A stretch of DNA of 64,000 bases from the human T2T-CHM13v2.0 reference genome, Homo sapiens: NCBI RefSeq assembly GCF_009914755.1, contig NC_060925.1; one strand, written 5' to 3'. Positions 17,500-55,225 of the stretch are shown piece by piece (position 1 is the stretch's first letter; each line of letters opens with the position of its first letter). A model generated the notes under the pieces. That model was not told the origin of the DNA. It did no database searches and saw nothing but the letters and a program-made list of their open reading frames with translations. Both the position numbers and the translations under genes were made by a program.

Positions 17500-20320
17500 G
17501 ATAGAAATAGAAAACACTGGTGACACACTGTTGGCTTGCTGTGGGGAACATTGCTGGTGGAAATGCAAAATATTATAACCCTATGAAGGAAAATTTGGCA
17601 AAACCTTATTAGCATTTCCCCTTTGACCCAGGAATCCACCTCTAGGATCTATCCCAAAAATTCACTGGGAAAATCATGAAAAGACATGCACACGAGCTGA
17701 ACCAGCACAGCACTACTGGAGAGGGCAGAAGGCGAGGGGCAATCCCAATGCCCATCACTAGGGACTGACCGATGACACCATGGTACTCTCACTTATGTTG
17801 CAGCTGTAAAATGGAATGAGGAATTTTTTTTCATGGCTCCGAAGCAATCTCCAGGATGCAGAGTTAAGTGAAAACAGCAAGGTAGCAAGTAAAAACAGAA
17901 AAGATACATATTTTTTTCATATTATGGTTTCTTCATATGTATGAGAAAAAAATATATGTATAGCATGCATATTTGATATTTGCATGTCAAAAGGACACAG
18001 GAATCAACCTGAAAGAGTTACCAAAGCTGGAACAATTTGAGTGACAAATAATGATAGTATTAGATTATAGTCCAAATACTAAAACAAATATCCATGAGGT
18101 CATACTGATATGGATAAATGATTCAATCAATCAATCAATCATTCAATGAGATAAAAGGAACAAGTCTTCCTTAGAAAGAAAAACATCCCAAGTAATAAAT
18201 ACAGATGTTACCCTCTCCAGGAGCTGGAACTTAATTTCCCTCTCCTTATGGATGAGGTAGACTTAGTGACTCATATGCAGAGAATAGAGTATGGAAAGGA
18301 GAAAATAGTAACTGCAGTGGAGAAACCTGATAGATACCATCTTAGCAAAGTGACTGAGGTTAACATCACCAATGATAAGTCATCTTTGTATCATGCACCT
18401 CCTGATATGATGTGATATGGCATGGCTGTATCCCCACACAAATCTCATCTTAAATTGTAGCTCCCATAATTCCTAAGTGTCATGGGAGGGACCTGGGGGG
18501 AGGTAATTGAATCATAGGGGCAGGTCTTTCTTGTGCTGTTCTCATAAGAGGGAATAATTCTCATGAGATCTGATAGTTTTATAAAGGGGAGTTCCCCTGT
18601 ACACGTGCTCTGTTGCCTGCCACCATGTAAGACATGACTTTGCTCCTCCTTTGCCATCCACCATGATTGTGAGGCCTCCCCAGCCATGTGGAACTGTGAG
18701 TCAATTAAACCCCTGTCCTTTATAAATTATTCAGTCTCAGGTATGTCTTTATTAGCAACATGAGAACAGACTAATACATTATGTGACGAGGACACCTTAC
18801 CTCTGTAGCCTTCTTTCCCTAAACTCACAAGCCCAGTCTAATTGTGATGAAACACAAGACAAGCCCAAATGGAAAGGCCTCCTATAAAATTCCAGGCCAG
18901 CGGACTTGGAAAGTGTCAGGGCCATGAAAAATAGTGAAAGACGAAGGTAACTACCACAGACTACAGGAGACTAAGGAGGCAGGATAACTGACTGCAACAA
19001 GAAATGATATCCCGGGCTGGATTTCAGAACAGAAAAAAGGATATTAGTAAAAAAAAATGGCAAACTTCAAATAAAGTGTGCAGTTTATTTAACAGCATTT
19101 TATCAGTATTAATTTCTTAGTTTTGAAGAATGGACCCTGGTTAAGTAGGATGTTAATAGCAGGAGAAGCTGGGTGAAGAGTGTTCAGGGGCTCTCTGTAC
19201 TATGTCAGCCATTTTTCTAACTAAAATCATTCAAAACAGAAATTTAAAAAATATTTTTATTTGTTATTTTTTATTTAATAACATAGTGGAAGGGTAAAAC
19301 ATAAACTGTAACAGAAAATGGTGACCAAAGAGACATTGAAACAATAGGTTAGTGGGAAGAGCCATAGAACCAAATATTTGAATACACATTGTTTTGTAGA
19401 CTTGACTTTGTAATCTTTTATAAATATTTTATGTAATTTAAAATAAATTTGAAACCATAAAAAGCATGTTTAACTAGATATCCACATGCAAAAGAATGAT
19501 TTTATGATACCACATAAAAATCTCAGCATAAAATGGATCAAATGCCCAAAGCAACTCATAGAAATCTAAAGCAAAAATAAATGAATGAATTTAACTATGC
19601 ATTGAGTTGAGTTGCATGGAACCCAACCATGGAATCTTGCCATAGAAAATAACTAGTTTAAAAGACTTTCAATGAATTGGATTATAAATCCCTAGTAGAC
19701 TGCAATCTAATGTAAAATAAATGTGGAGATATTTGTACAGTTTTCATAAATCATACTTTGGGTGGTACTGCTGTTTTTCCAAGATGGTTATATGTGCATT
19801 GTGAGATAAAAGAGTAAGCAAGTGTGTTAGTATTCTGAAAACAGGACTTTCACTGTGGGAGAAATAAAATATAGATGTAGGACCAATGATGCTTAGTAAA
19901 TATTTCATAGTTCTTACTTTATATTAAAAAATCCATATAAATAATACATTTTCTGATTAAAATGTTTCCTAAATATCCATTATTTCATAGTGTCCACTAA
20001 AAGAACTGAAAATGGTGACACACCCGTAAGCAGCGAGCACTCCCAGCACTCAGACTGTGGTCTCTACCTACCATTAGAGGGACTAGGGCTCCTTAAATAA
20101 ACAGTTGATTTCAAATATGAGGCAGGAAATGAAAAAGATGTGCCCAAGTCACCTTTCATATAGAATGAAAGGAGCTACCAAAGACTACTGGGGTCATATA
20201 ACCATCGTCATCATTAAAGTAATTGTAATAATAATAAAGAAATAATGCTCAAGAGCCAATTTGAATAGATTTATTTCCCAATGGCCAAGAATGTAATAAT
20301 TTGATCATAATTAAGAATAA
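17500..20320 (+). mobile_element. Cluster of old L1M 3' fragments (L1ME-like, then L1MC-like split by THE1B)
   Basis: ttgctggtggaaatgcaaaa, tttgacccaggaatccacctctagga; L1MC-type cagtggagaaacctga...aggttaacatcacca and ggatgttaatagcaggagaagctgggtgaag. Confidence 0.7.
18413..18778 (+). mobile_element. THE1B solo LTR (MaLR)
   Basis: tgatatgg...cagactaataca, 366 bp, close to the recalled THE1B consensus; near-TSD tgatg/ttatg. Confidence 0.92.
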
Positions 20321-20322
20321 TA

Positions 20323-20632
<310 letters not shown>

Positions 20633-21059
20633 GAATCCAATAGGGAAAACACATTTCAGTTCCATATATCAGCAATAAAAATGAAACGTAATTTAGACTT
20701 TTGTTGCTTTGTAAACGGAAAGTTTAAAAATGCTTTTTAAATCCAGGAATACATCTAATAGTAGTTGTATAGGATTTAATGGAGAAAATTACAGGAGATT
20801 TATTTTAAAACACTATAGAAAACATCATCAATGGGTCATGCTTTATAAAAATAAAAATTATCTCCAAATTTATAATGTCATTCAATTCCAATCAAAATTT
20901 CAATTTTTTGTAATGAGAAAATTGATTATCTCATTCTATACTAAAAATGTAAGAGAATAATGAAAATGACTAAAACATTCTTGAGGAAATTAAACAAGGT
21001 GATGTGGGATGTGTTGGGGAGATTGCCATGTCAAAGCATATTATAAAGGCATAGTAGGA

Positions 21060-21489
<430 letters not shown>

Positions 21490-22325
21490 TTACTCTGGGT
21501 CAATGGTAGAACAACGGATTAATCAATAAGTGGAGGTGGAACATTTGATTGTTCTTATAGGAAACAGAATACAGTTAGGTCCCAATCTCATTATCTCATG
21601 CCACATTCAATATTCAATTCTAGTTGTGTAAAGCCCTAAATGAGAAAAGCAAAATAATTTAAATTTAGAAAAAAATTATGGGACTACCTTTAATGTTTCA
21701 CAACAGGGATGTATATTTTTAAAGAAGACTAATAAGGCAAAAACCACAGAAGAAATAATTGCTAAATACAAGTACATTAAATTAAGAAAGAAAAAAACTT
21801 TCTAGTAACAGGAGATACTATTTTAGAAATGCAAAAGTAGCCACAGGTCAGGACAATTAGGCAAGAGAAAGAAATAAAAGGCATTCATATTGGACAGGAA
21901 AAAGTAAAACCATCTCCATTTGCAGATGACATGATTTTGTGCAAGAACATCCTGAGAAATCCATAAACAACCATTAGAGATAATAAACAAGTTCAGTAAG
22001 GCTGCAGAATACAAAATCAATACACAAAAATCAATTGTGTTTTTATATGTTAGCAATGAGCAATCCAGAAAGAAAACAAATAAAACAATGCCACTTACAA
22101 CAGCACAAAAGAGAATAAAAGACTTAGGAATAAATTTGACAGCAGAAGTATAAGCCTTGTACATTGAAAACTATAAAACATAATTGAAAGAAAATGAAAA
22201 TCTAAATAACTGGAAAGATATCATGTGACCATCGATTGGAAGTCTCTGTAGTGAAGATGGCAAACTTCCTAAGCTGATCTATGATCTGCAGATTCCACAC
22301 AACCACTACCAAAACACTAAGTGGC

Positions 22326-22358
<33 letters not shown>

Positions 22359-23391
22359 AGAGATTGACAAGGTAATCCTAAAATTCATATGAAAATTCAA
22401 GGAAATCAGAATAGCCAAAGCAATCTAGAAAAGTTTCAAAACTTACTACAAAGCTGCAGGAATTAAGACTGTGTGGCACTGGCATACGATAGACACAGAT
22501 CAATGGAAGAGTACTGAAAGTTCAGAAATAAGCGTTTATGGTGAATTGATTTTCAATAAGAGTGCCAAAGCAAATCAATTGAGGACATAATAGTCTTTTT
22601 AACTAACAACGCTGATACAACTGGTTATCTACACACAAAAGAATGAAGTTGGATGCATACCTCACACCATATACAAAAAATAACTCAAAATGGATCAAAG
22701 GCCTAAATGTAAGAGCTAAAATGAGAAAGTTGTTAGAGGAAAATATAGGCATAGATCTTGGATTAGGCAATGGTTTCTTAAAGTATAAGCAACAAAATTA
22801 ACAAATAAATTGGAGCTTACCAAAATTAACAAATTTCATGTTTCATGTTTTGAAAGAATAAAGAGAAAAGATGGCCCAGAGATTGTGAAAAAAACTTTAA
22901 ATCTAATATCTGATAAAGTTATAGTATTCAGTATATATACAGAACTCATGGTTCAACAATAAAAAGACAAATATAATGAGCAAGGGATTCAAATGGACAT
23001 TTCTTCAAAGAAGATATGCAAATGGTCAATCAGTACATGAAAAGATGCTTGATCTCCTTACTCATATAACGAAATATTAGCCACAAAAAGGAATGAAGAG
23101 CTGATACATGTTACAACACAGAGGATTCTTGAAAATATTATGGTAAGTGAAAGAAGCAAATCAGCAAGACCACATCGTGTATGAGTCCATTTCTATGAAA
23201 TATCCAGAACAGGTTAAATCCAAAGACATAGAAAGTAGATTGGTGGCTTCCAGGAACTGGGGGAACAGGGAATGGGTCATGTTTGCTAATGGGCATGGGG
23301 TTTCATTTTGGGGTGGAGAAAATGTTCTGGAATTAGATAGTGGTTATGGTTGCACAGCCTTGTGAATGTGCTAAGTGCCACCGATTTGTAT

Positions 23392-23764
<373 letters not shown>

Positions 23765-24368
23765 TGATATGTGAATATATAGATAGACTGGGAAACATAT
23801 TTGTAACAGGCAACAACGAAGGACTAATATTTAGGATATCTAATGTGTGATAACTTTGAAACATGAATAGAATAGGAAAACGAACAAAGTGTGTGAATGG
23901 CCAATTCAATAAAAAGAGAATAAGGATGGCCAATACGTCCATGATATAAAACAATGAGAAACCTTGCACACTGCTGGCAGGAATGTAGGTGGTGTAACCA
24001 CTGGGAATAGCGTGTCAGTACCTGGTGAGATTGGAGATGCAGACTCTGTGGCCCAGCGATTCTATTCCTAGTTATGCAGCCCAGGGAATAACTCCTATAG
24101 CTCAAAAGAAGACGTGTAAAAGAATTCATAGCAATTTTTCTTGGAATGGAAAAAGATCAGAGAAACATCTAAAATGTCCAACCACAGGAAAGCAGATATA
24201 TGTATTAGCAAGGATACTATATCCATGAGCATAAATGAATTAGCACTACAATTTTCAAGAGAGGTAGATTTCACAAATATGTTGAGAAAAATATTTTAAA
24301 TTAAAATAAATAAAAAATGCAAGTTGTTGAACAGTGTATTCAAAATAATGTTGCTCATACAAAGGTCA

Positions 24369-24674
<306 letters not shown>

Positions 24675-24959
24675 TCAAAAGCACATATAGCAATAGCAAT
24701 ACATATGGATGTGTATATATGAGGCAAAGGAAAAGAGATGCATGTACATAAAAAAGCCAAACAGAATAGTGGTTACCTCTTACAGAGAGATAGAGATGTG
24801 TGACTGGGAAGGGGGGCCAGGGAGCTTTAATGACATTGATAACATTTTATTTCTTAACCAGGGTGATGGGCACATGAGCATATATTATTTTGTTCTTTAT
24901 ATCTTATTGTATATCTTGAATATCATGTAAGAATTTCTAAAAGAAAAAAAAATTAGAAA

Positions 24960-25277
<318 letters not shown>

Positions 25278-45534: not shown

Positions 45535-46395
45535 TCCTGTGCGGCAAACCACTCTAACACTTCGTGGTTTATTATAACAGCAATTGTAAGTTATCTCTCA
45601 AAGTTTCATGGATGGACTGCGCTCAGTGGAGCGGTTTTCATCTGGAATCTCTCTGGTCATGTCTAGATGGGGGCTGCATCTTGAGTCATCAAAGGTTTGG
45701 TAGGGCTGGAAGGGCAAACTGGCCTCTTCACTTACATCTTAGGCACCAAATCTGGGCTGGCAGGAAGGCTGGGGCGGGTGGGGCAGCCTGCTCTCTCCAT
45801 GGCCTTTCCATGGGGGTGGCGTGGGCTTCCTTGCAACGTGGCCTTCTCAGAGTAGTTTATTTCTTTTCTTTTTCTTTTTTTTGAGACAGAGTCTCACTGT
45901 GTCACCCAGGCTGGGGTTCAGTGGCATGATCTTGGCTCACTGCAACCTCTACCTCCAGATTCAAGTGATTCTCCTACCTCAGCCTCCTGAGTAGCTGGGA
46001 TTACAGGTGCTCTCCACTACACTCAGCTAATTTTTGCATTTTTAATAGAGATGGGGTTTCACCATGTTGGCCAGGCTGGTCTCACTCTCCTGATCTCAAG
46101 TGATCCACCCACCTTGGCCTCCAAAAGTGCTGGGATTACAGGCGTGAGCCACCGTAGTTGGCCCGAGTCGTTGATTTCTTACACGGCAAATGTCTTCCCA
46201 AAGAGTGAGCATTCTAAGGTGATGGGAATGGAAGCTGCCATCTCTGAAGGCCCTGGCCCGGAAGACAGCACCGAATCACCCCGGCCATTGTCTACTGGAC
46301 AAACTGTCACAGAGCCTGCCCAGATTCAAGTGGAGGGGCAAGGAGTTTTCCTCTCCGTGGGAAGAGTGGCAAAGAATTTTTGTGGCCATCTTTAA
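45535..46395 (-). mobile_element. MLT1H-like LTR split by an Alu
   Basis: caaaccactctaacacttcgtggttta...ctctctccatggcctttcca...gggcttcc; resumes ttcttacacggc...gcccagattcaagtggagggg...gcaaagaattttgtggccatctttaat. Confidence 0.75.
45860..46164 (-). mobile_element. AluS (Sz/Sx-like)
   Basis: Reverse dimer; degenerate TSD gagtagtttatttctt / gagtcgttgatttctt. Confidence 0.93.
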
Positions 46396-46706
46396 TTCTT
46401 CTCTGCATTGAGAAAATGATATTTTCCCCCAAATGCTGCTGCATGAACAAAATGAAGGACAATTTGTAGAGCATCTTGCTGAGTGCCTGACACATACCGG
46501 TGTTCAGTAAATACCCATTTCCTTCTCCTTCGGCCCTTTGTCCTTCCCTAGGCCACTTGCAACTGAGATGCTCTTAGCAACAGCGGAGCCAAGAGACCTG
46601 GCTGGCCCTCCCTTCCCTGAGGGATGGGAAAGTCAGGCCATCAAAGTTTCAGGTTGAGATGGTTTTTCTCAACCCCATCTGCAAGATAGAAACCCATGGG
46701 AGACTT

Positions 46707-47327
<621 letters not shown>

Positions 47328-48046
47328 TAAAATGGGAAGCATTTAAACCCTGTCAATTTTTGCCCTAAGCCTAGGGCTTCTCATGAAGCCCTAGCTGTTT
47401 GACACGAGGCTCCTTTATGTTTCTAAGCTTTCTTCCCCAGGCCACTTCAACGCTGGCAATTGAGGGTTGAACACTGGGGTTCTAGGATACCATGTTCATG
47501 TGCCAGGGTGTGGCAGGGAGAGGACCTAGGAGGAGGTCAGTAGGGATGGTGGCACGGAAAGAATGTGAGTTACCCACAAGCGAAGTCCCAACCAGGCCAC
47601 TGCTTACAGTCACCAGGGGGTGCCACAGCCCTGGGCTCCCTGGTACCCAACAGCAGCTGGAGGGCATGGACAAGGTCATGCCAAGGTGAATCTTCCCCCA
47701 TCTCCCCGCCTCCTCCTGTGAGCAAGGAATGAACTTTTCTTTTCTAAAGATTTAACACCTCATTCATAAAAATAAAATGGTTACATGAGACCCCCTACTA
47801 GAGAGAACACCAAGTACATTTGGTTCCCATCAAGTCCGAGGGCGAGAATGGATATAAATAGTTGGCTTTTAAGAGGAAACTGCTGAGCAGGTGCAAATAC
47901 TCCCCGTACCTTGGAAGTGTCTGCTGAGCCTTATTACTCTGGGTAATTGGGGTTATGTGCCGTTGCTCTCTCTTACGGCCAAGGTTTCTGTTTCTGAAGC
48001 TGGTGCCTCCAGGATGAATTAGCGCCCGCCCCTTCATAAGCAGTGA

Positions 48047-48666
<620 letters not shown>

Positions 48667-49486: not shown

Positions 49487-50814
49487 CCCCTCAGACCAGC
49501 CCCAGCATCCTGCCTCGCATTGACACCTGACACAGAGGCTGCAAGGATCTGCAGCCAGGCCTGCGGGGGGCTCCTCATCTCCGCCCTCGCTGTGGCTCTG
49601 GCAGCTGCTGCTGACTTGGTTCAGGAAGGGGATGCCCCTCCTGATGATGACCTTCGCTGCCTCTCCACTGGGTTATTTAATATGGCAGGTTTCCTTTCCA
49701 CCTCCCACAGCCGTAAACGAAGACAGATTGCTCCTCTCACGTTTAAGGGCTTTTGAATATAGAGTAGAATTGATCTTATATATGGGAGAGGTAACATTCC
49801 TTGAACACACCAGCATAAGATTGTATTTGATGACAAGGCCCCTCGCTCAGTAAATTCCTCCTTCCAGGGAGATCATAGATGGACGTGCTCCCATATGGAG
49901 GTGAGAACATAGCAGAGATAATGTTTAACTATTTTCCCAATGGGTCTGAGTTAAAATTCTATTTTCCTAATCATTTACCAGAGATTCGCTGCCTCTTAGT
50001 GAAACACAGTTTAGCAAGTCACATAAATCAGATCTGTTGGTAGTCTCTAAACTCACCGACTTCGTTGTTTTTCTGTGTTGTGAGCCTCAGCCTGCCTTGC
50101 CATGCATCTCCCTTGCTCAAGAACCTTCAGTGGCTCCCCATTGCCTCTTGGATCAGACCCAGGTTGTTGTCCCTCGCCTTGTATCCTATTTCCCTCTCCT
50201 GCTGCAAACAGCAACTTCCTTGTCGGAACAGACCAGCTGCTCACCACCCACACACTCCCCCACCACCCTTGAGAGCTCACGTTCTCCACTAAGCTCTCCC
50301 CAGCTACCAACACCTTCAGAACACAGTAAATCTTCTCTTGAGTACATTTTTTGCGTGTATATGAATCTAAACAAGATTCAACTCTGAGGTTGCAGAAGGT
50401 AGAGGAGAGTGAAGAAATGGCACTACCAAGTTCATTCTTGTTGGGCTTCAACAAGAGATAATTTTTTTTTTCAGGCCACAACATGGCATTCTACCTTACC
50501 AATCATGGTTTTGAAATAAAGGCACTGTTTATTTATCCAAATGCTCAAAATATCTCAATCTGCAGATTTCTTTTTACCTCTATGAGATTCAATTCAGTTC
50601 TCTTATTGTTCTTTCTCTCCTGTGATCCTTGGGGTGGGGGAGGGGGGCTTGCACTGGCATGAAGAGGAGACAGCACTGGTCAGTTGACTCACTGAGTGAC
50701 ACCCTGTCATGTCTAATTAAACTACAGGCTTTGTGGACGGCTTAATGGACGTTCTCTGCAGATTTCTCTGGCTTCTGCTTTTCCTGTACTTTTTTTGGAC
50801 TTGTTTTTGCAAAC

Positions 50815-50988
50815 GGCAGTGTCAGGTAGGGCATGGATTTGGGAGCCAGAAAGCCCAGGTTCAAATCCTGACTCTGCCACTTACTAGCTATGTGGCTTTG
50901 GGCAAATTACTCAACCTCTCTGTGCCTTATTTTTTCCAGTTGTAAAATGGAAGATAATACTAGCACCTCTCACCGAAGATTGTTGAGG
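50815..50988 (+). mobile_element. MIR 5' part (probably resumes near 51895-51985)
   Basis: ggttcaaatcctgactctgccacttactagctatgtggctttgggcaaattactcaacctctctgtgcct...tgtaaaatgg. Confidence 0.88.
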
Positions 50989-51897
50989 TGGGTCCAGAAC
51001 TGTGACACTTACATCCGGGCAGTTTACTTATCAGGACTGAAATGAAGGCACTCGCCCCAACCTAACTTTACTATTTGTGCCGAGAAATTCTTGCCAGGAA
51101 GATAAGGCTGTAAATGAGTAAACCACAGAATTATTACCCTCAGCGACAACCCCAAAATCTGTTTGGCAGCACCATAGTTGGCTCCTCTGGGCAAGCAGCC
51201 CCATTCTCAGGACAATAGATCGCTAACTGGGTGGTATGGTTTGGCTGTGTCCCCACCCAAATCTCATCTTGCATTGTAGTTTCCATAATTCCCACGTGTT
51301 ATAGGAGGGATCTGGAGGGAGACCATTAACTCACGGGGGCAGTTTCCCTCATACTGTTCTTGTGGTAGTGAATAAGTCTCATGAGACCTGATGGTTTTAT
51401 AAGGGGAAACCCCTTTGGCTTGGTTCTCATTTTCTCTCTTGTCTGCCACCATGTGAGACATGCCTTTTGCCTTCCACCATGATTGTGAGGGCTCCCCAGC
51501 CGCATGGAACTGTGAGTCCATTAGACCTCTTTTTCTTTATAAGTTACTCAGTCTCAGGTATGTCTTTATCAGCAGTATGAAAACAGACTAATACAACGGG
51601 AAAACCCAATTATTTATCAGATGATTGTTTACTCATCAAAATTTCATCCAAGACGCTTGCCTGGCTATGTCCACCGATCCTAAACCATTATATGGCAAAC
51701 ATCCCAATCAGATCTGTGTATTGAAAAACCCATCTCGAGCTACCCAAACCCAGACCCCCAAAATCTATATGCGTTCCCCCTTCACCTCCCTGTGACCTCT
51801 GTCAAGGTGGAGTTCTCCCCACTGCACTGAGCAATGAACTTGGCCTTGCTTGATCCACAGGTTACTATGGTGCTGTTTGGGAAACTTGGGAGTTAAT
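50985..51897 (+). mobile_element. Old ERV1-class solo LTR (MER89/MER90/MER34-like), split by THE1
   Basis: ggaagataaggctg in the 5' half; ctctgtcaaggtggagttctcccc...gcaatgaacttggccttgcttgatccacagg in the 3' half. Family uncertain. Confidence 0.55.
51232..51595 (+). mobile_element. THE1 (B-like) solo LTR
   Basis: tatggtttggctgtgtccccacccaaatctcatcttg...ggtatgtctttatcagcag...cagactaataca. Confidence 0.93.
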
Positions 51898-52046
51898 GAG
51901 ATTAACTGCATGATCCTTCATTCATAATATCTAAGAAACACTTTGTCAATGCTTGGTGCATGCAGGCAATAGGAATTAGTTATTCTTCTAATACTGTGCC
52001 TCGAAAATCATTTGGGTGCATAAAAACATGTATTTTACTCTCTGTA

Positions 52047-52124
52047 TTTCATTGTGGGACCCACCTCCTGGTCTTCACTGCAACTTTCTCCAGCACCAGA
52101 TCAGACCTAAAAGCATCAAATAGC
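52047..52124 (+). repeat. Left arm of 78-bp inverted repeat
   Basis: Its reverse complement equals 52913-52990 at 76 of 78 positions (aligned by hand). Confidence 0.97.
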
Positions 52125-52912
52125 TTTTAATGCTCAAAAATGGCTGCAAGTGAACAAGCAAAGACAAAGAAGATCTGTCACTGGAAGATAAAATAAAAGC
52201 ACTTGTCAGAATTGCAGCTGCACTGTTGGGGCCTCCGTGGGGCATTTTTAAGCAATGCAAGAATCTGACAGCAGTTCTCAGCCTCTAACCATAAGCAGGA
52301 TCCATGTTGAACAGTAACCATCATCCTTATCACTGCAGTGGCTCTTGTGCAGGTGAAGAAGAGCACGGGCCTCTGTGCCAGGCCAGCATAGAACTTGGGG
52401 TAGGAGGACTTTAAAGAGAATATTTCCTTGTCCCTCACCAGCCACCCGTTGGAGATTTTGATACGCCCCACCCCAGCCTGCTCGACAAGTTTTACAGCGG
52501 AAAACTCAGTAGGAAGGACAGCACTTTTGTATTTTCTTCTCATTCCCTGTTTTCCATGGGATCTTGATGTCAATTTCAGTTTTTGCCACTCACCAGGGTA
52601 CTTCTCAGGAACATGACCTTCATGCCAACCAGTGGAGACAAGAGCTCACAGAGCCTTCCGCAGGATGAGAGCATAGGAAGGATCCACTGGAAAGGCAGGT
52701 ATGCAAGCATTCCAGAATGTTATCTTCTTCCACCTTTTGTAATCTCTTATATTTGGATGTCAGTTCCTTTTGGTACGAGCACCTCAAGAGCATTTCATGA
52801 TGGATGGCAGGGTAGCAAAAGAAGACACATTGCATGTACATGGATGCACACGACTTCTGACCCTGTGACACTTTTCGCAGTTTGACCAACAATATTGATT
52901 TTTGTCTGTGCT

Positions 52913-52990
52913 GCTATTTGATGCTTTTAGGTCTGACCTGGTGCTGGAGAAAGTTGCAGTGAAGACCAGGAGGTGGGTCCTACAATGAAA
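52913..52990 (-). repeat. Right arm of 78-bp inverted repeat
   Basis: gctatttgatgcttttaggtctgacctggtgctggagaaagttgcagtgaagaccaggaggtgggtcctacaatgaaa is the reverse complement of 52047-52124 with 2 mismatches. Confidence 0.97.
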
Positions 52991-54002
52991 GCCAGTTGGC
53001 TGGGAGACTGATTGGTAACAGAGGGAGGCCAGAGCTACTCGCTTACCAGGGCTGATGCCTCTACACCGAAATCGTTGTGGTGATGGGAGTGAGTGAGAGA
53101 TCTCTTTTCTAATGGATGACCCCAGTTCCGTTTGGAGAGGGTATTTGAAACTACTTTTCCAAACTACTTGGCTTGGTTTTCTTTCTTTTCTTTTCTTTTT
53201 TTTTTTGGCCAACACAACTAAATTACCTTTTTTTCCCTCCGAAACAAATTTTTTTGGAAAAATACAACTACCCCCATTTCCTTACACGCCCTTCCCTAGC
53301 ATACAAGCTGGTGAACTTCTTTTGAAATTGATTTAAAAAGTAGGACACGGTGCCTTGTTAATAAGCCATAGGGAGAGCAGAAATGTTGACATTGGCTTGA
53401 AATGTCAAGCCCCTCAGCCATTTTTATTTTAAACCTCAGACCCCGAAGGAACTGTTCTGATTTTCCTCCCTGCATCTGCCAGAAGAGGGTCCTTAGGAAG
53501 GCCACCATGGATGTCAGATGAGCTCTCAGCCCCTCAAAGGCCTCCTCTCAGCTCATTTTGCTTGGAAACTGGCAAACACTCATTCGTATGCATGCCACTA
53601 ATCTGAAATTTATGATAATTCGGAGATACAGTGAATGGAAGGTTTAGCTAAACAAATTTATAATGCAAACAAGATTGCAGGAGGGAGGCTGAACTTCTTG
53701 TAGTTAGCAGCTGATTTCCAAGGACCGGAGGACCCCATTTATGTGATCTATAATTGACTTGCCAATTACCAATCTGTCTTATCTGCTTTTCTGCTAGATT
53801 GAAAGGCGGGGACCTCATGTAGGCTGGGACCAGCCTGGTGCTTAATGCTCAAAGATATTTGCTGATTGAAAAAATGAGTATGTTTTAGTAAAATAAGCGC
53901 CCCAGGGGAAACACTTAGTTTTGGTGATTCAGTATGCTATTTGACAAATTAATCTCTATTTCTTTTAAAACACGCTCTATTTTAGACTTTTCACTAATCT
54001 AG

Positions 54003-54230
54003 ATTATTTGTTCTCAATAGGAGTAATCTTGCCCGCCCCCACCCCGGAGAAACTTGGCAATATCCGGAGACATTTCTTGTTGTTACAAATTAAAGGAATG
54101 GGGGAGGTCCTGGCATAGTGGGTAGGGACTGGGGATGCTACTGAACATTCTACACTATACATGGCAATCCCCGCCCCTGCAAGGTATCATCTGGCCTCAA
54201 TGTCAATGGTGCTGAGCTTGGGAAACCCTG
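54003..54230. mobile_element. MER20 (hAT-Charlie)
   Basis: gttctcaa...ttggcaatatccggagacattt...ctggcat...gggatgct...aatgtcaatggtgctgagcttgggaaaccctg. Confidence 0.85.
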
Positions 54231-55029
54231 ACTAGGGGGCCTTCTTCCAGTTCACCTAGACAAGGGAGCTTGGGGTGTGTGAGTTTCTGGTTAGAATTTC
54301 CGTGGTTTTCAAGTATTTTGGCTCTTGAAGTATTTTGTAATTTCTGCTGTCTGTCCATCATCTCGGACTCCAGGGGTTTCATGAGACAATGAAGAGGAAA
54401 GCTTACTCATGACCATATTCCTGCAGATGAGCAGGCCTAAAGGGGGAAAGGAAGGGACCTCTTTTGCTGCCAGTGAACTCCAGCATCCATTGAGCAATCT
54501 CATTTTTACCACCAGGTGGACTTCCCCTAGGCAATGGTACCTAAAAGTGGTGGGCGTTTTTCAGAGCCGCTCTGTCCTGGACAAACACCAAAGGGACCAG
54601 AAGATGAACAAAAGCTGATGCAATGCAAGGATTAGAGCCCTAGAGAAAGGAGGGTCTGAAATTGCTCCTAATTCCTGGCATTCCTGGCATGAAGCAGAGG
54701 CTGAATACATTATCCCCTTGTGTTGATTGGAAATTTGTTAACTTTTGCCATCTTTTTCTGTCTGTTTGGCCAAGGATTTCATAAAACACAATTTCGTGGC
54801 TATGAAAATGTGCTTGAGAATGTGTCCCATGGTGATGACTTGGAGCATATCATGAGGGTGCAGAAATACAAAATGAAGTGGGGGGGTCTCACCTTCTCCA
54901 AGAAGCTGAATGATCAACCCACTTGCGGGTGTGCATTCATCCCCTGCTCCCAAGCAGGTGGAGACTGCTGTGGGACGTCACGCTCTGCATGGTGATAAGC
55001 TTTGCCATCGTGTTTACCCAAACAAGAGG

Positions 55030-55225
55030 TCAAGAGCATGGTTTTGGAGTGAGACAGAAGTGCAGTCACACCCCAGCTTCATATGTGTGTTGCCCACATC
55101 GCACAAGGAGCCACTTCAATGTAGCACACCTCATTTCCTTAAAATGAGGATAATAATGCCTGGCCTTTCTGGTTGTCATGGCGATGGAGATAATGTGGGT
55201 ATAATGCTCATCCAGATGGGTGTCT
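55030..55225 (+). mobile_element. MIR (degenerate)
   Basis: gtcaagagcatggttttggagtgagacaga...cctcatttccttaaaatgaggataataatgcct. Confidence 0.65.

What the first reader, a model, noticed from the sequence alone, without database searches (positions are those of the whole stretch)
52047..52990. Orphan 78-bp near-perfect inverted repeat flanking 788 bp: candidate invertible segment or long-range RNA stem
Seen: 52047-52124 and 52913-52990 are reverse complements at 76/78 positions (mismatched pairs 52056/52981 and 52100/52937). The arms resemble no repeat I recognise, outer flanks differ (ctctgta vs gccagtt, so no TSD), and the spacer has no transposase remnant. Established: anthropoid DNA transposons are long extinct and the fossils here are far more decayed, so the pair is young or homogenised by gene conversion; inverted duplications at breakpoints are known products of staggered-break or template-switch inversions. 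Inference: the scar of a roughly 0.8-0.9 kb micro-inversion that may be polymorphic or recurrent. Alternatively, if transcribed, a non-Alu 78-bp duplex with one G-U and one A-C pair, a potential ADAR or Dicer substrate. This is the strongest unexplained structure in the window.
Basis: partly seen in the sequence, partly recalled or inferred. Interest (0 to 1): 0.8.

Follow-up and report, generated by a model that had tools for sequence, protein, structure and literature searches.

The report
Local inverted duplication scar, not transposon
A unique 78-base stretch of human chr1 intergenic DNA sits twice, in opposite orientations, around 788 bases of unique DNA; it looks like the ordinary scar of a one-off replication or repair error rather than a mobile element or a gene.

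Summary
The boundaries are sharp.

In the whole T2T genome the arm occurs only at these two places. The spacer and both flanks match only themselves.

Nothing points to a mobile element or a known RNA:
- There is no target-site duplication.
- None of 10 ORFs scanned hit Pfam.
- Rfam gave only two chance-level rows (E 0.49 and 0.84), both outside the element.

A predicted protein from one unnamed contig matches part of the spacer with at least 7.4% DNA divergence. So the spacer is old orthologous DNA, while the arms differ by only 2.6%.

Best reading: a single local inverted duplication from template switching or staggered-break repair, with or without inversion of the spacer. This is a known class. 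No tool here gives outgroup or pangenome DNA, so inversion versus plain inverted insertion stays open. Nothing supports polymorphism or function. Interest is low.

The parts
52047..52124 (+). Left arm of the inverted repeat (78 nt, no CpG, 47% G+C)
   Evidence: In the whole genome it is found only here and at the right arm.
52913..52990 (-). Right arm, the reverse complement of the left arm at 76 of 78 positions
   Evidence: (97% over 78 nt).
52125..52912 (.). 788-bp spacer of unique, non-coding-looking DNA. Its orientation relative to the ancestral state is unknown.
   Evidence: It matches only itself in the genome. Its ORFs have no Pfam hit. Positions 52313-52543 have a relative, P0001, in another species with at least 7.4% nucleotide divergence.
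52178..52645 (-). 155-aa stop-to-stop ORF inside the spacer, judged a chance ORF
   Evidence: Pfam found nothing. 18 of 5826 stop-to-stop ORFs in the window are this long or longer. The relative P0001 changes frame near its end.
52042..52046 (.). Possible 5-nt outward extension of the pairing (with 52991-52995). Only 3 of 5 positions pair, so this may be chance.

Best explanation
The pair is the scar of one local rearrangement in the primate lineage. A 78-bp piece of ancestrally unique intergenic DNA was copied once, in reverse orientation, about 0.8 kb away. Two routes give this architecture. One is a polymerase template switch to the opposite strand (MMBIR/FoSTeS type). The other is fill-in of a staggered break followed by end joining. 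Either route leaves flank, arm, 788 bp, inverted arm, flank.

I rate two sub-forms about equally likely:
(a) The 788 bp between the arms was inverted in the same event (INVDUP-INV, perhaps with a small deletion at the other breakpoint).
(b) Only a 78-bp reverse-complement copy was inserted, and the spacer kept its orientation.

The structure is most likely neutral. It is not mobile, encodes nothing and needs no function to persist.

Shown: the pair is real and sharply bounded, occurs in two copies genome-wide, has no transposon hallmarks, and its spacer is older than the arm similarity suggests.

Inferred: the mechanism, the age, and neutrality. The age is roughly 13 Myr at 1e-9 per site per year, with a 95% range of 1.6-46 Myr.
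For: The arms match at 76 of 78 positions with sharp ends, and a word-7 blastn finds no decayed extension.

Uniqueness in the whole T2T genome:
- The 83-nt arm gave 2 of 2 candidates, both its own places.
- A 30-nt arm pattern with up to 3 mismatches gave 1 forward and 1 reverse hit, and the reversed control gave 0 and 0.
- The spacer gave 1 candidate, itself.
- The left and right flanks each gave 1 candidate, themselves.

No TSD of 2-10 bp was found at any symmetric boundary shift from -8 to +8. The only matches were a 2-bp one at shift +6 and a 5-mer with one mismatch at shift +8, both lying inside the arms.

P0001, an 84-aa predicted protein from one unnamed 5390-nt contig, matches the translation of 52313-52543 with 15 of 77 residues different. 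That needs at least 17 nucleotide changes in 231 (7.4%). A neutral simulation fits best near 10%. So the spacer is old orthologous DNA, while the arms differ by 2.6% (95% interval 0.3-9.3%).

The class is described in print:
- INVDUP-INV-DEL is the commonest complex SV structure called against T2T-CHM13, 174 calls among 1,247 nonredundant CSVs (10.1101/2024.12.19.629504, section 6 read).
- 17 of 29 Drosophila inversions carry inverted duplications of non-repetitive DNA, 46 bp to about 1.9 kb long. For 12 inversions only one breakpoint is duplicated (PMC1885836, passages).
- Human template-switch copies reach 318 bp (PMC9435742, passages).

Small junction microhomologies fit either arm being the copy. 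TTT begins the left arm and follows it, and GC begins the right arm and follows it (read).
Against: No outgroup or second human haplotype could be read, so neither the one-arm ancestral state nor the spacer orientation is shown.

The age gap between arms and spacer is not significant (2/78 against 17/231, Fisher p = 0.17).

The own-genome DNA search relies on shared words and states that its counts are lower bounds. A very old repeat family at about 65-70% identity could be missed.

The published short-range template-switch scans that I read discarded events with a switch distance above 250 bp. A 788-bp jump is therefore outside what they document.

Most complex SVs in the preprint are far larger, with a median of 91.5 kb.
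Confidence: 0.78

Rival explanations
1. The arms act as substrates for ongoing homologous exchange. On this reading the 788-bp segment flips recurrently and is polymorphic in orientation among humans.
For: Inverted repeats flanking a segment are the architecture of recurrent NAHR inversions (PMC3961182, abstract and passages). Arm identity is 97%.
Against: The arms are only 78 bp, and the perfect blocks are 9, 43 and 24 bp. The inversions in PMC3961182 are 5.1-226 kb with much larger repeats.

No coordinate beginning 4081, 4082 or 4083 appears in the 2 held supplement files of the T2T inversion catalogue PMC10150506.

In the cut supplement file of PMC12350169 the three 'chr1-408x' terms had 0 occurrences. 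The bare number prefixes had 11 occurrences, and none of the 5 passages shown was a chr1 coordinate.

Nothing relevant was found in PMC13721702. There the hg38 number prefixes rested on a recalled gene coordinate.

These catalogues have little power below 1 kb.
Confidence: 0.07
2. It is a decayed, very low-copy cut-and-paste DNA transposon or MITE whose 78-bp terminal inverted repeats were kept alike by gene conversion.
For: Long terminal inverted repeats around an about 0.8-kb interior are the anatomy of a non-autonomous DNA element.
Against: Only the two own copies of the arm exist in 3.1 Gb. There is no TSD.

0 of 10 ORFs scanned have any Pfam family at E up to 10. The 155-aa ORF has no paralogue in the genome beyond chance-level hits. 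The best is E = 0.02 with 4 in-frame stops, and there is no DNA similarity.

No decayed repeat surrounds the arms, as a conversion tract inside an older repeat would leave.

By recall, not from a call: DNA transposons have been inactive in anthropoids for tens of millions of years.
Confidence: 0.04
3. It is a functional long hairpin. The region is transcribed and the 78-bp duplex is used as an ADAR or Dicer substrate or as a structural RNA element. Selection keeps the arms complementary.
For: As RNA, 52040-52997 folds with the arms fully paired. The MFE is -361.9 kcal/mol against -281.3 +/- 8.3 for shuffles, z = -9.7, and 0 of 20 shuffles fold as well. Template switching is reported to create RNA hairpins and new miRNA genes (PMC8794818 and PMC10710096, search listing and start of abstracts only).
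Against: The fold follows trivially from the repeat and is no evidence of use. The element lies outside both annotated lncRNAs of the window, 2.2 kb upstream of the LINC01646 start at 55214 (hub annotation).

Rfam gave no family at or near its threshold in 51000-54000. The only two rows, E 0.49 and 0.84, lie outside the element.

With only two arms and no orthologues, covariation cannot be tested.
Confidence: 0.05
4. It is an assembly or polishing artefact of the CHM13 assembly.
For: None from my calls. The possibility is kept only because raw reads were not available.
Against: Two substitutions between the arms and clean unique junctions are not what a collapsed or chimeric read join typically gives. 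This is inference.
Confidence: 0.02

Closest known systems
INVDUP-INV-DEL / INVDUP-INV-INVDUP complex structural variants in human assemblies (PAV calls; preprint 10.1101/2024.12.19.629504)
   Same: The product has the same layout: a segment flanked on one side by an inverted duplicate of sequence from its other side. It is attributed to template switches. It is the commonest complex structure called against T2T-CHM13, with 174 calls.
   Different: Those calls are polymorphic and mostly large, with a median of 91.5 kb. Here the unit is 0.94 kb, it sits in the reference itself, and inversion of the middle is not shown.
Staggered-break inversions with inverted breakpoint duplications (Drosophila; Ranz et al. 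2007, PMC1885836)
   Same: The duplications are of ancestrally unique, non-repetitive DNA at the ends of an inverted segment. They are 46 bp to about 1.9 kb long and often occur at one breakpoint only. The 78-bp single duplication here fits that range.
   Different: Those inversions are chromosomal in scale, occur in flies, and were polarised with outgroups. This one is 0.8 kb, in a primate, and unpolarised.
Short-range template-switch mutations (Loytynoja and Goldman 2017, PMC5453318; Loytynoja 2022, PMC9435742)
   Same: One event writes a reverse-complement copy of nearby sequence and creates a near-perfect hairpin-capable repeat. Reported copies reach 318 bp.
   Different: The short-read analysis in that work discarded events with a switch distance above 250 bp. 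Here donor and copy are 788 bp apart.
Terminal-inverted-repeat DNA transposons / MITEs
   Same: Inverted termini around a short interior.
   Different: There is no family (2 copies only), no TSD and no transposase trace.
Inverted-repeat-mediated recurrent human inversions (Aguado et al. 2014, PMC3961182)
   Same: Inverted repeats bracket a unique segment.
   Different: Those repeats and inversions are kilobases in size (5.1-226 kb inversions). These arms are 78 bp, with at most 43 bp of perfect identity.

Membership tests
Cut-and-paste DNA transposon / MITE | Terminal inverted repeats | tested here: met
   76 of 78 positions are complementary.
Cut-and-paste DNA transposon / MITE | Belongs to a multi-copy family with the same termini | tested here: not met
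   The arm is found only at its own 2 places in 3.1 Gb. The spacer matches only itself. The search is word-based, so very old copies could be missed.
Cut-and-paste DNA transposon / MITE | Target-site duplication flanking the termini | tested here: not met
   No direct repeat of 2-10 bp was found at boundary shifts from -8 to +8.
Cut-and-paste DNA transposon / MITE | Transposase remnant, or similarity to an autonomous partner | tested here: not met
   0 of 10 ORF translations hit Pfam at E up to 10. A six-frame genome search with the 155-aa ORF gave only chance-level hits.
Inversion with inverted breakpoint duplication (staggered break / INVDUP-INV-DEL) | Inverted duplicate of ancestrally unique sequence at the two ends of a segment, with sharp boundaries | tested here: met
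Inversion with inverted breakpoint duplication (staggered break / INVDUP-INV-DEL) | Segment between the arms inverted relative to the ancestral arrangement | not testable with these tools
   No primate or second human assembly is held. The 5390-nt contig behind P0001 could not be fetched.
Inversion with inverted breakpoint duplication (staggered break / INVDUP-INV-DEL) | Only one arm present in the ancestral state | not testable with these tools
   Searches with ORFs that cross the junctions found no relatives.
Short-range template-switch mutation | Reverse-complement copy of nearby sequence, with a copy length in the reported range | tested here: met
   The copy is 78 nt, and reported copies reach 318 bp.
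Short-range template-switch mutation | Donor within the short range scanned in that work (events with a switch distance above 250 bp were discarded in its short-read analysis) | tested here: not met
   788 bp separates the arms. The filter is quoted.
NAHR-mediated recurrent inversion polymorphism | Long, highly identical inverted repeats (hundreds of bp to kb) | tested here: not met
   The arms are 78 bp and the longest perfect block is 43 bp. Published cases are much larger.
NAHR-mediated recurrent inversion polymorphism | Both orientations present in human haplotypes | tested here: inconclusive
   It was not found in the three supplement sets searched. One file was cut when stored, catalogues have low power below 1 kb, and no haplotype sequences were available.
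Described structured RNA family (Rfam 15) | Match at or near a family's gathering score | tested here: not met
   There were only two sub-threshold rows, both outside the element.
L1 twin-priming inversion (about 85% of human inversions under 2 kb, abstract of 10.1101/2021.12.20.472354) | The sequence is L1, or a retrocopy with a parent elsewhere | tested here: not met
   The arms, spacer and flanks have no other copy in the genome.

The most novel reading that the evidence does not exclude
The 78-bp arms are not just a scar. They may keep flipping the 788-bp segment, giving a recurrent sub-kilobase inversion driven by homology far below the usual NAHR length. Alternatively, the unit may be transcribed upstream of LINC01646 as a long non-Alu hairpin that feeds ADAR or Dicer. 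That would be a one-step birth of a dsRNA locus by template switching.
Probability: 0.07. Interest if true: 0.5.

Novelty: new member of a known kind. Interest (0 to 1): 0.2.

Why it matters
If the reading is right, this is one more fixed or near-fixed example of a common mutational class. It has small value as a clean, sequence-resolved case for studying how inverted duplications arise at sub-kilobase scale. It is also a reminder that a long, near-perfect inverted repeat in human DNA need not be a transposon. It would matter more only if pangenome data showed both orientations, or if expression data showed a processed duplex.

Tried and rejected
1. Transposase idea. By eye I thought frames of the spacer resembled pogo/Tigger motifs. 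Pfam rejected this: 0 of 6 and 0 of 4 ORFs had a hit.

2. Paralogues of the 155-aa ORF in the genome. There were 6 weak hits with E of 0.02 or worse and no DNA similarity. In the representative library, P0002 is a bacterial repeat protein that matches by chance.

3. Getting outgroup DNA.
- Junction-crossing ORFs gave no homologues.
- P0001 was found only as itself, from one 5390-nt contig.
- The search for related loci with P0001 gave 182 pattern matches in genome contigs and 9 in viral contigs, and none was confirmed.
- A 22-nt arm pattern gave 0 matches in both collections.

5. Inversion catalogues. Nothing was found at this place.

6. I first called the repeat at about 51330-51599 an Alu. 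It shows no similarity to the Alu-like arms of the window. By recall it looks like a MaLR (THE1/MST-type) LTR. It plays no part in the finding.

7. Twin priming or a retrocopy was rejected for want of any parent copy.

8. Composition skews across the spacer were too noisy to orient it.

Full report
**Observation**

Positions 52047-52124 and 52913-52990 are reverse complements at 76 of 78 positions. The two mismatched pairs are 52056/52981 and 52100/52937. On a + strand RNA these would be a G-U and an A-C. The repeat finder reports the pair as 83 nt at 95% with 788 nt between the arms, but only 3 of the 5 extra outer positions pair.

A word-7 blastn of 50500-54500 against itself gives E = 1.5e-26 for the pair. 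It finds no weaker similarity continuing inward or outward. The duplicated block is therefore sharply bounded.

The window has 17 inverted pairs of 40 nt or more within 5 kb. The other 16 pair stretches at 20.3-25.2 kb and 45.9-48.4 kb at 70-93% identity. In 14 of them both arms lie in NCBI-masked repeats. In the other 2, one arm lies in a masked repeat and the other in a stretch that the hub's table does not list. This pair alone lies wholly in unmasked DNA, and it is the most similar.

**Is it a transposon?**

The whole T2T genome is held as G000.
- The 83-nt arm finds 2 candidates, both its own places.
- A 30-nt arm pattern with up to 3 mismatches finds 1 forward and 1 reverse match, the two arms. 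The reversed control finds 0 and 0.
- The 788-bp spacer finds only itself. So do the left flank 51605-52046 and the right flank 52991-53700.
- A 2301-bp query across the region returned 42 matches. One was itself, 2 were the arm pair, and 39 were copies of the interspersed repeat at its left end.

No direct repeat of 2-10 bp flanks the unit at any symmetric boundary shift from -8 to +8.

One search lists 12 stop-to-stop ORFs of 50 aa or more. I scanned the 10 that touch the unit, and none has a Pfam family at E up to 10.

The longest ORF is 155 aa, at 52178-52645 on the minus strand. It is not unusual: 18 of 5826 stop-to-stop ORFs in the window are at least that long. Its six-frame search of the genome gave itself plus 6 chance-level hits. 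The best had E = 0.02 and 4 in-frame stops, and there was no DNA similarity.

A caveat applies to all these searches. The genome search works from shared words and states that its counts are lower bounds. A family decayed to about 65-70% identity could escape it, and Dfam was not available.

**An unexpected outgroup glimpse**

I scored the 155-aa ORF against 1.84 billion representative proteins. Two hits reached E of 0.001 or better.
- P0002 is a long bacterial repeat protein that matches a short low-complexity stretch, so it is a chance hit.
- P0001 is an 84-aa predicted protein known from a single unnamed 5390-nt contig. It aligns to the translation of 52313-52543 with 62 of 77 residues identical and then changes frame.

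Fifteen amino-acid differences need at least 17 nucleotide changes in 231 (7.4%). A neutral substitution simulation on the human codons fits best near 10%, with a plausible range of about 6.5-12%.

The human genome has no second copy, so P0001 comes from another species. By recall, this level of divergence matches a monkey rather than an ape. I did not try to identify the source.

This shows the spacer is old, orthologous, non-coding DNA and not a recent arrival. The arms differ by 2 of 78 positions (2.6%, Poisson 95% interval 0.3-9.3%) and have no CpG sites. That corresponds to about 13 Myr (1.6-46) at 1e-9 per site per year, or 26 Myr (3-93) at 0.5e-9.

The arms therefore look younger than the DNA they sit in. 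With so few sites the contrast is not significant (Fisher p = 0.17).

**Mechanism**

The evidence is a single, sharply bounded, reverse-complement copy of unique DNA placed 0.8 kb from its source, with no mobile-element hallmarks. That points to a one-off replication or repair event. Two sub-forms give the same present-day picture:
(a) An inversion of the 788 bp in which one breakpoint was staggered or re-copied, leaving the 78 bp at both ends in opposite orientation.
(b) A template switch that only wrote a 78-bp inverted copy, leaving the spacer as it was.

Both are described classes.
- The PAV preprint reports INVDUP-INV-DEL as the commonest complex structure against T2T-CHM13. It has 174 calls, and INVDUP-INV-INVDUP has 8, among 1,247 nonredundant complex SVs (10.1101/2024.12.19.629504; section 6 read).
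- Ranz et al. found inverted duplications of non-repetitive DNA at 17 of 29 fly inversions. They are 46 bp to about 1.9 kb long, and for 12 inversions only one breakpoint is duplicated. The authors proposed staggered breaks (PMC1885836; passages).
- Loytynoja reports human template-switch copies up to 318 bp, although that short-read analysis discarded events with a switch distance above 250 bp (PMC9435742; passages).
- Human-chimpanzee microinversions of 17-33 nt are all flanked by inverted repeats (PMC8755829; abstract).

The junctions carry 2-3 bp of ambiguity. TTT begins the left arm and follows it, and GC begins the right arm and follows it. This fits microhomology-primed switching but does not say which arm is the copy.

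I could not decide between (a) and (b) and give each about half of the 0.78 I assign to the scar reading.

**Rivals**

*Recurrent flipping by homologous exchange.* This is unlikely with 78-bp arms whose perfect blocks are 9, 43 and 24 bp. Published repeat-mediated human inversions are kilobase-scale (PMC3961182).

I found no entry at this place in the supplement files I could search:
- The T2T inversion catalogue held 2 files with 0 occurrences.
- In the HGSVC 2025 paper the three 'chr1-408x' terms had 0 occurrences. The bare number prefixes had 11 occurrences. None of the 5 passages shown was a chr1 coordinate, and the file was cut when stored.
- The inversion benchmark had one unrelated occurrence. 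Its hg38 prefixes rested on a recalled coordinate.

These catalogues have little power below 1 kb.

*A functional RNA hairpin.* The unit does fold with the arms paired (z = -9.7, 0 of 20 shuffles fold as well), but that follows from the repeat itself. It lies outside the annotated lncRNAs, and Rfam gives nothing near threshold.

*A decayed transposon.* This fails three of its four defining features.

*An assembly artefact.* This could not be tested.

**Verdict**

The micro-inversion scar is a reasonable reading but unproven, since half my weight goes to a plain inverted insertion. Polymorphism and RNA function have no support. This is a new instance of a known kind of structural scar, so interest is low.

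The decisive data are ape and monkey orthologues, pangenome haplotypes and Dfam. None of them was reachable here.

Noticed in passing
window 51250-51600 (NCBI-masked 51330-51599): This is a high-copy interspersed repeat. A query starting at 51400 drew 6138 first-look candidates, and the 39 scored copies were 87-92% identical over about 175-216 bp. It is not Alu-like. By recall it resembles a MaLR (THE1/MST-type) LTR. It ends about 450 bp left of the inverted repeat and plays no part in it.
   Followed up: partly
window 52313-52543 (-): A spurious-looking 84-aa predicted protein (P0001) from one unnamed 5390-nt contig is the translated orthologue of this non-coding human stretch. It is 81% identical and changes frame near its end. 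This is an example of non-coding vertebrate DNA entering protein libraries as an ORF.
   Followed up: yes
window 20319-25245 and 45851-48489: Two clusters of oppositely oriented copies of one short interspersed repeat (Alu by recall) give 16 inverted pairs of 53-274 nt at 70-93% identity within 5 kb. They would form duplexes if co-transcribed. Neither cluster overlaps the annotated lncRNA exons.
   Followed up: no
window 53152-53264: A T-rich run lies at about 53177-53208, between the arms of a weak 23-nt inverted pair (74% complementary). A low-complexity match to it appeared in an unrelated locus. It is probably the tail of an old retroelement lying to the right.
   Followed up: no
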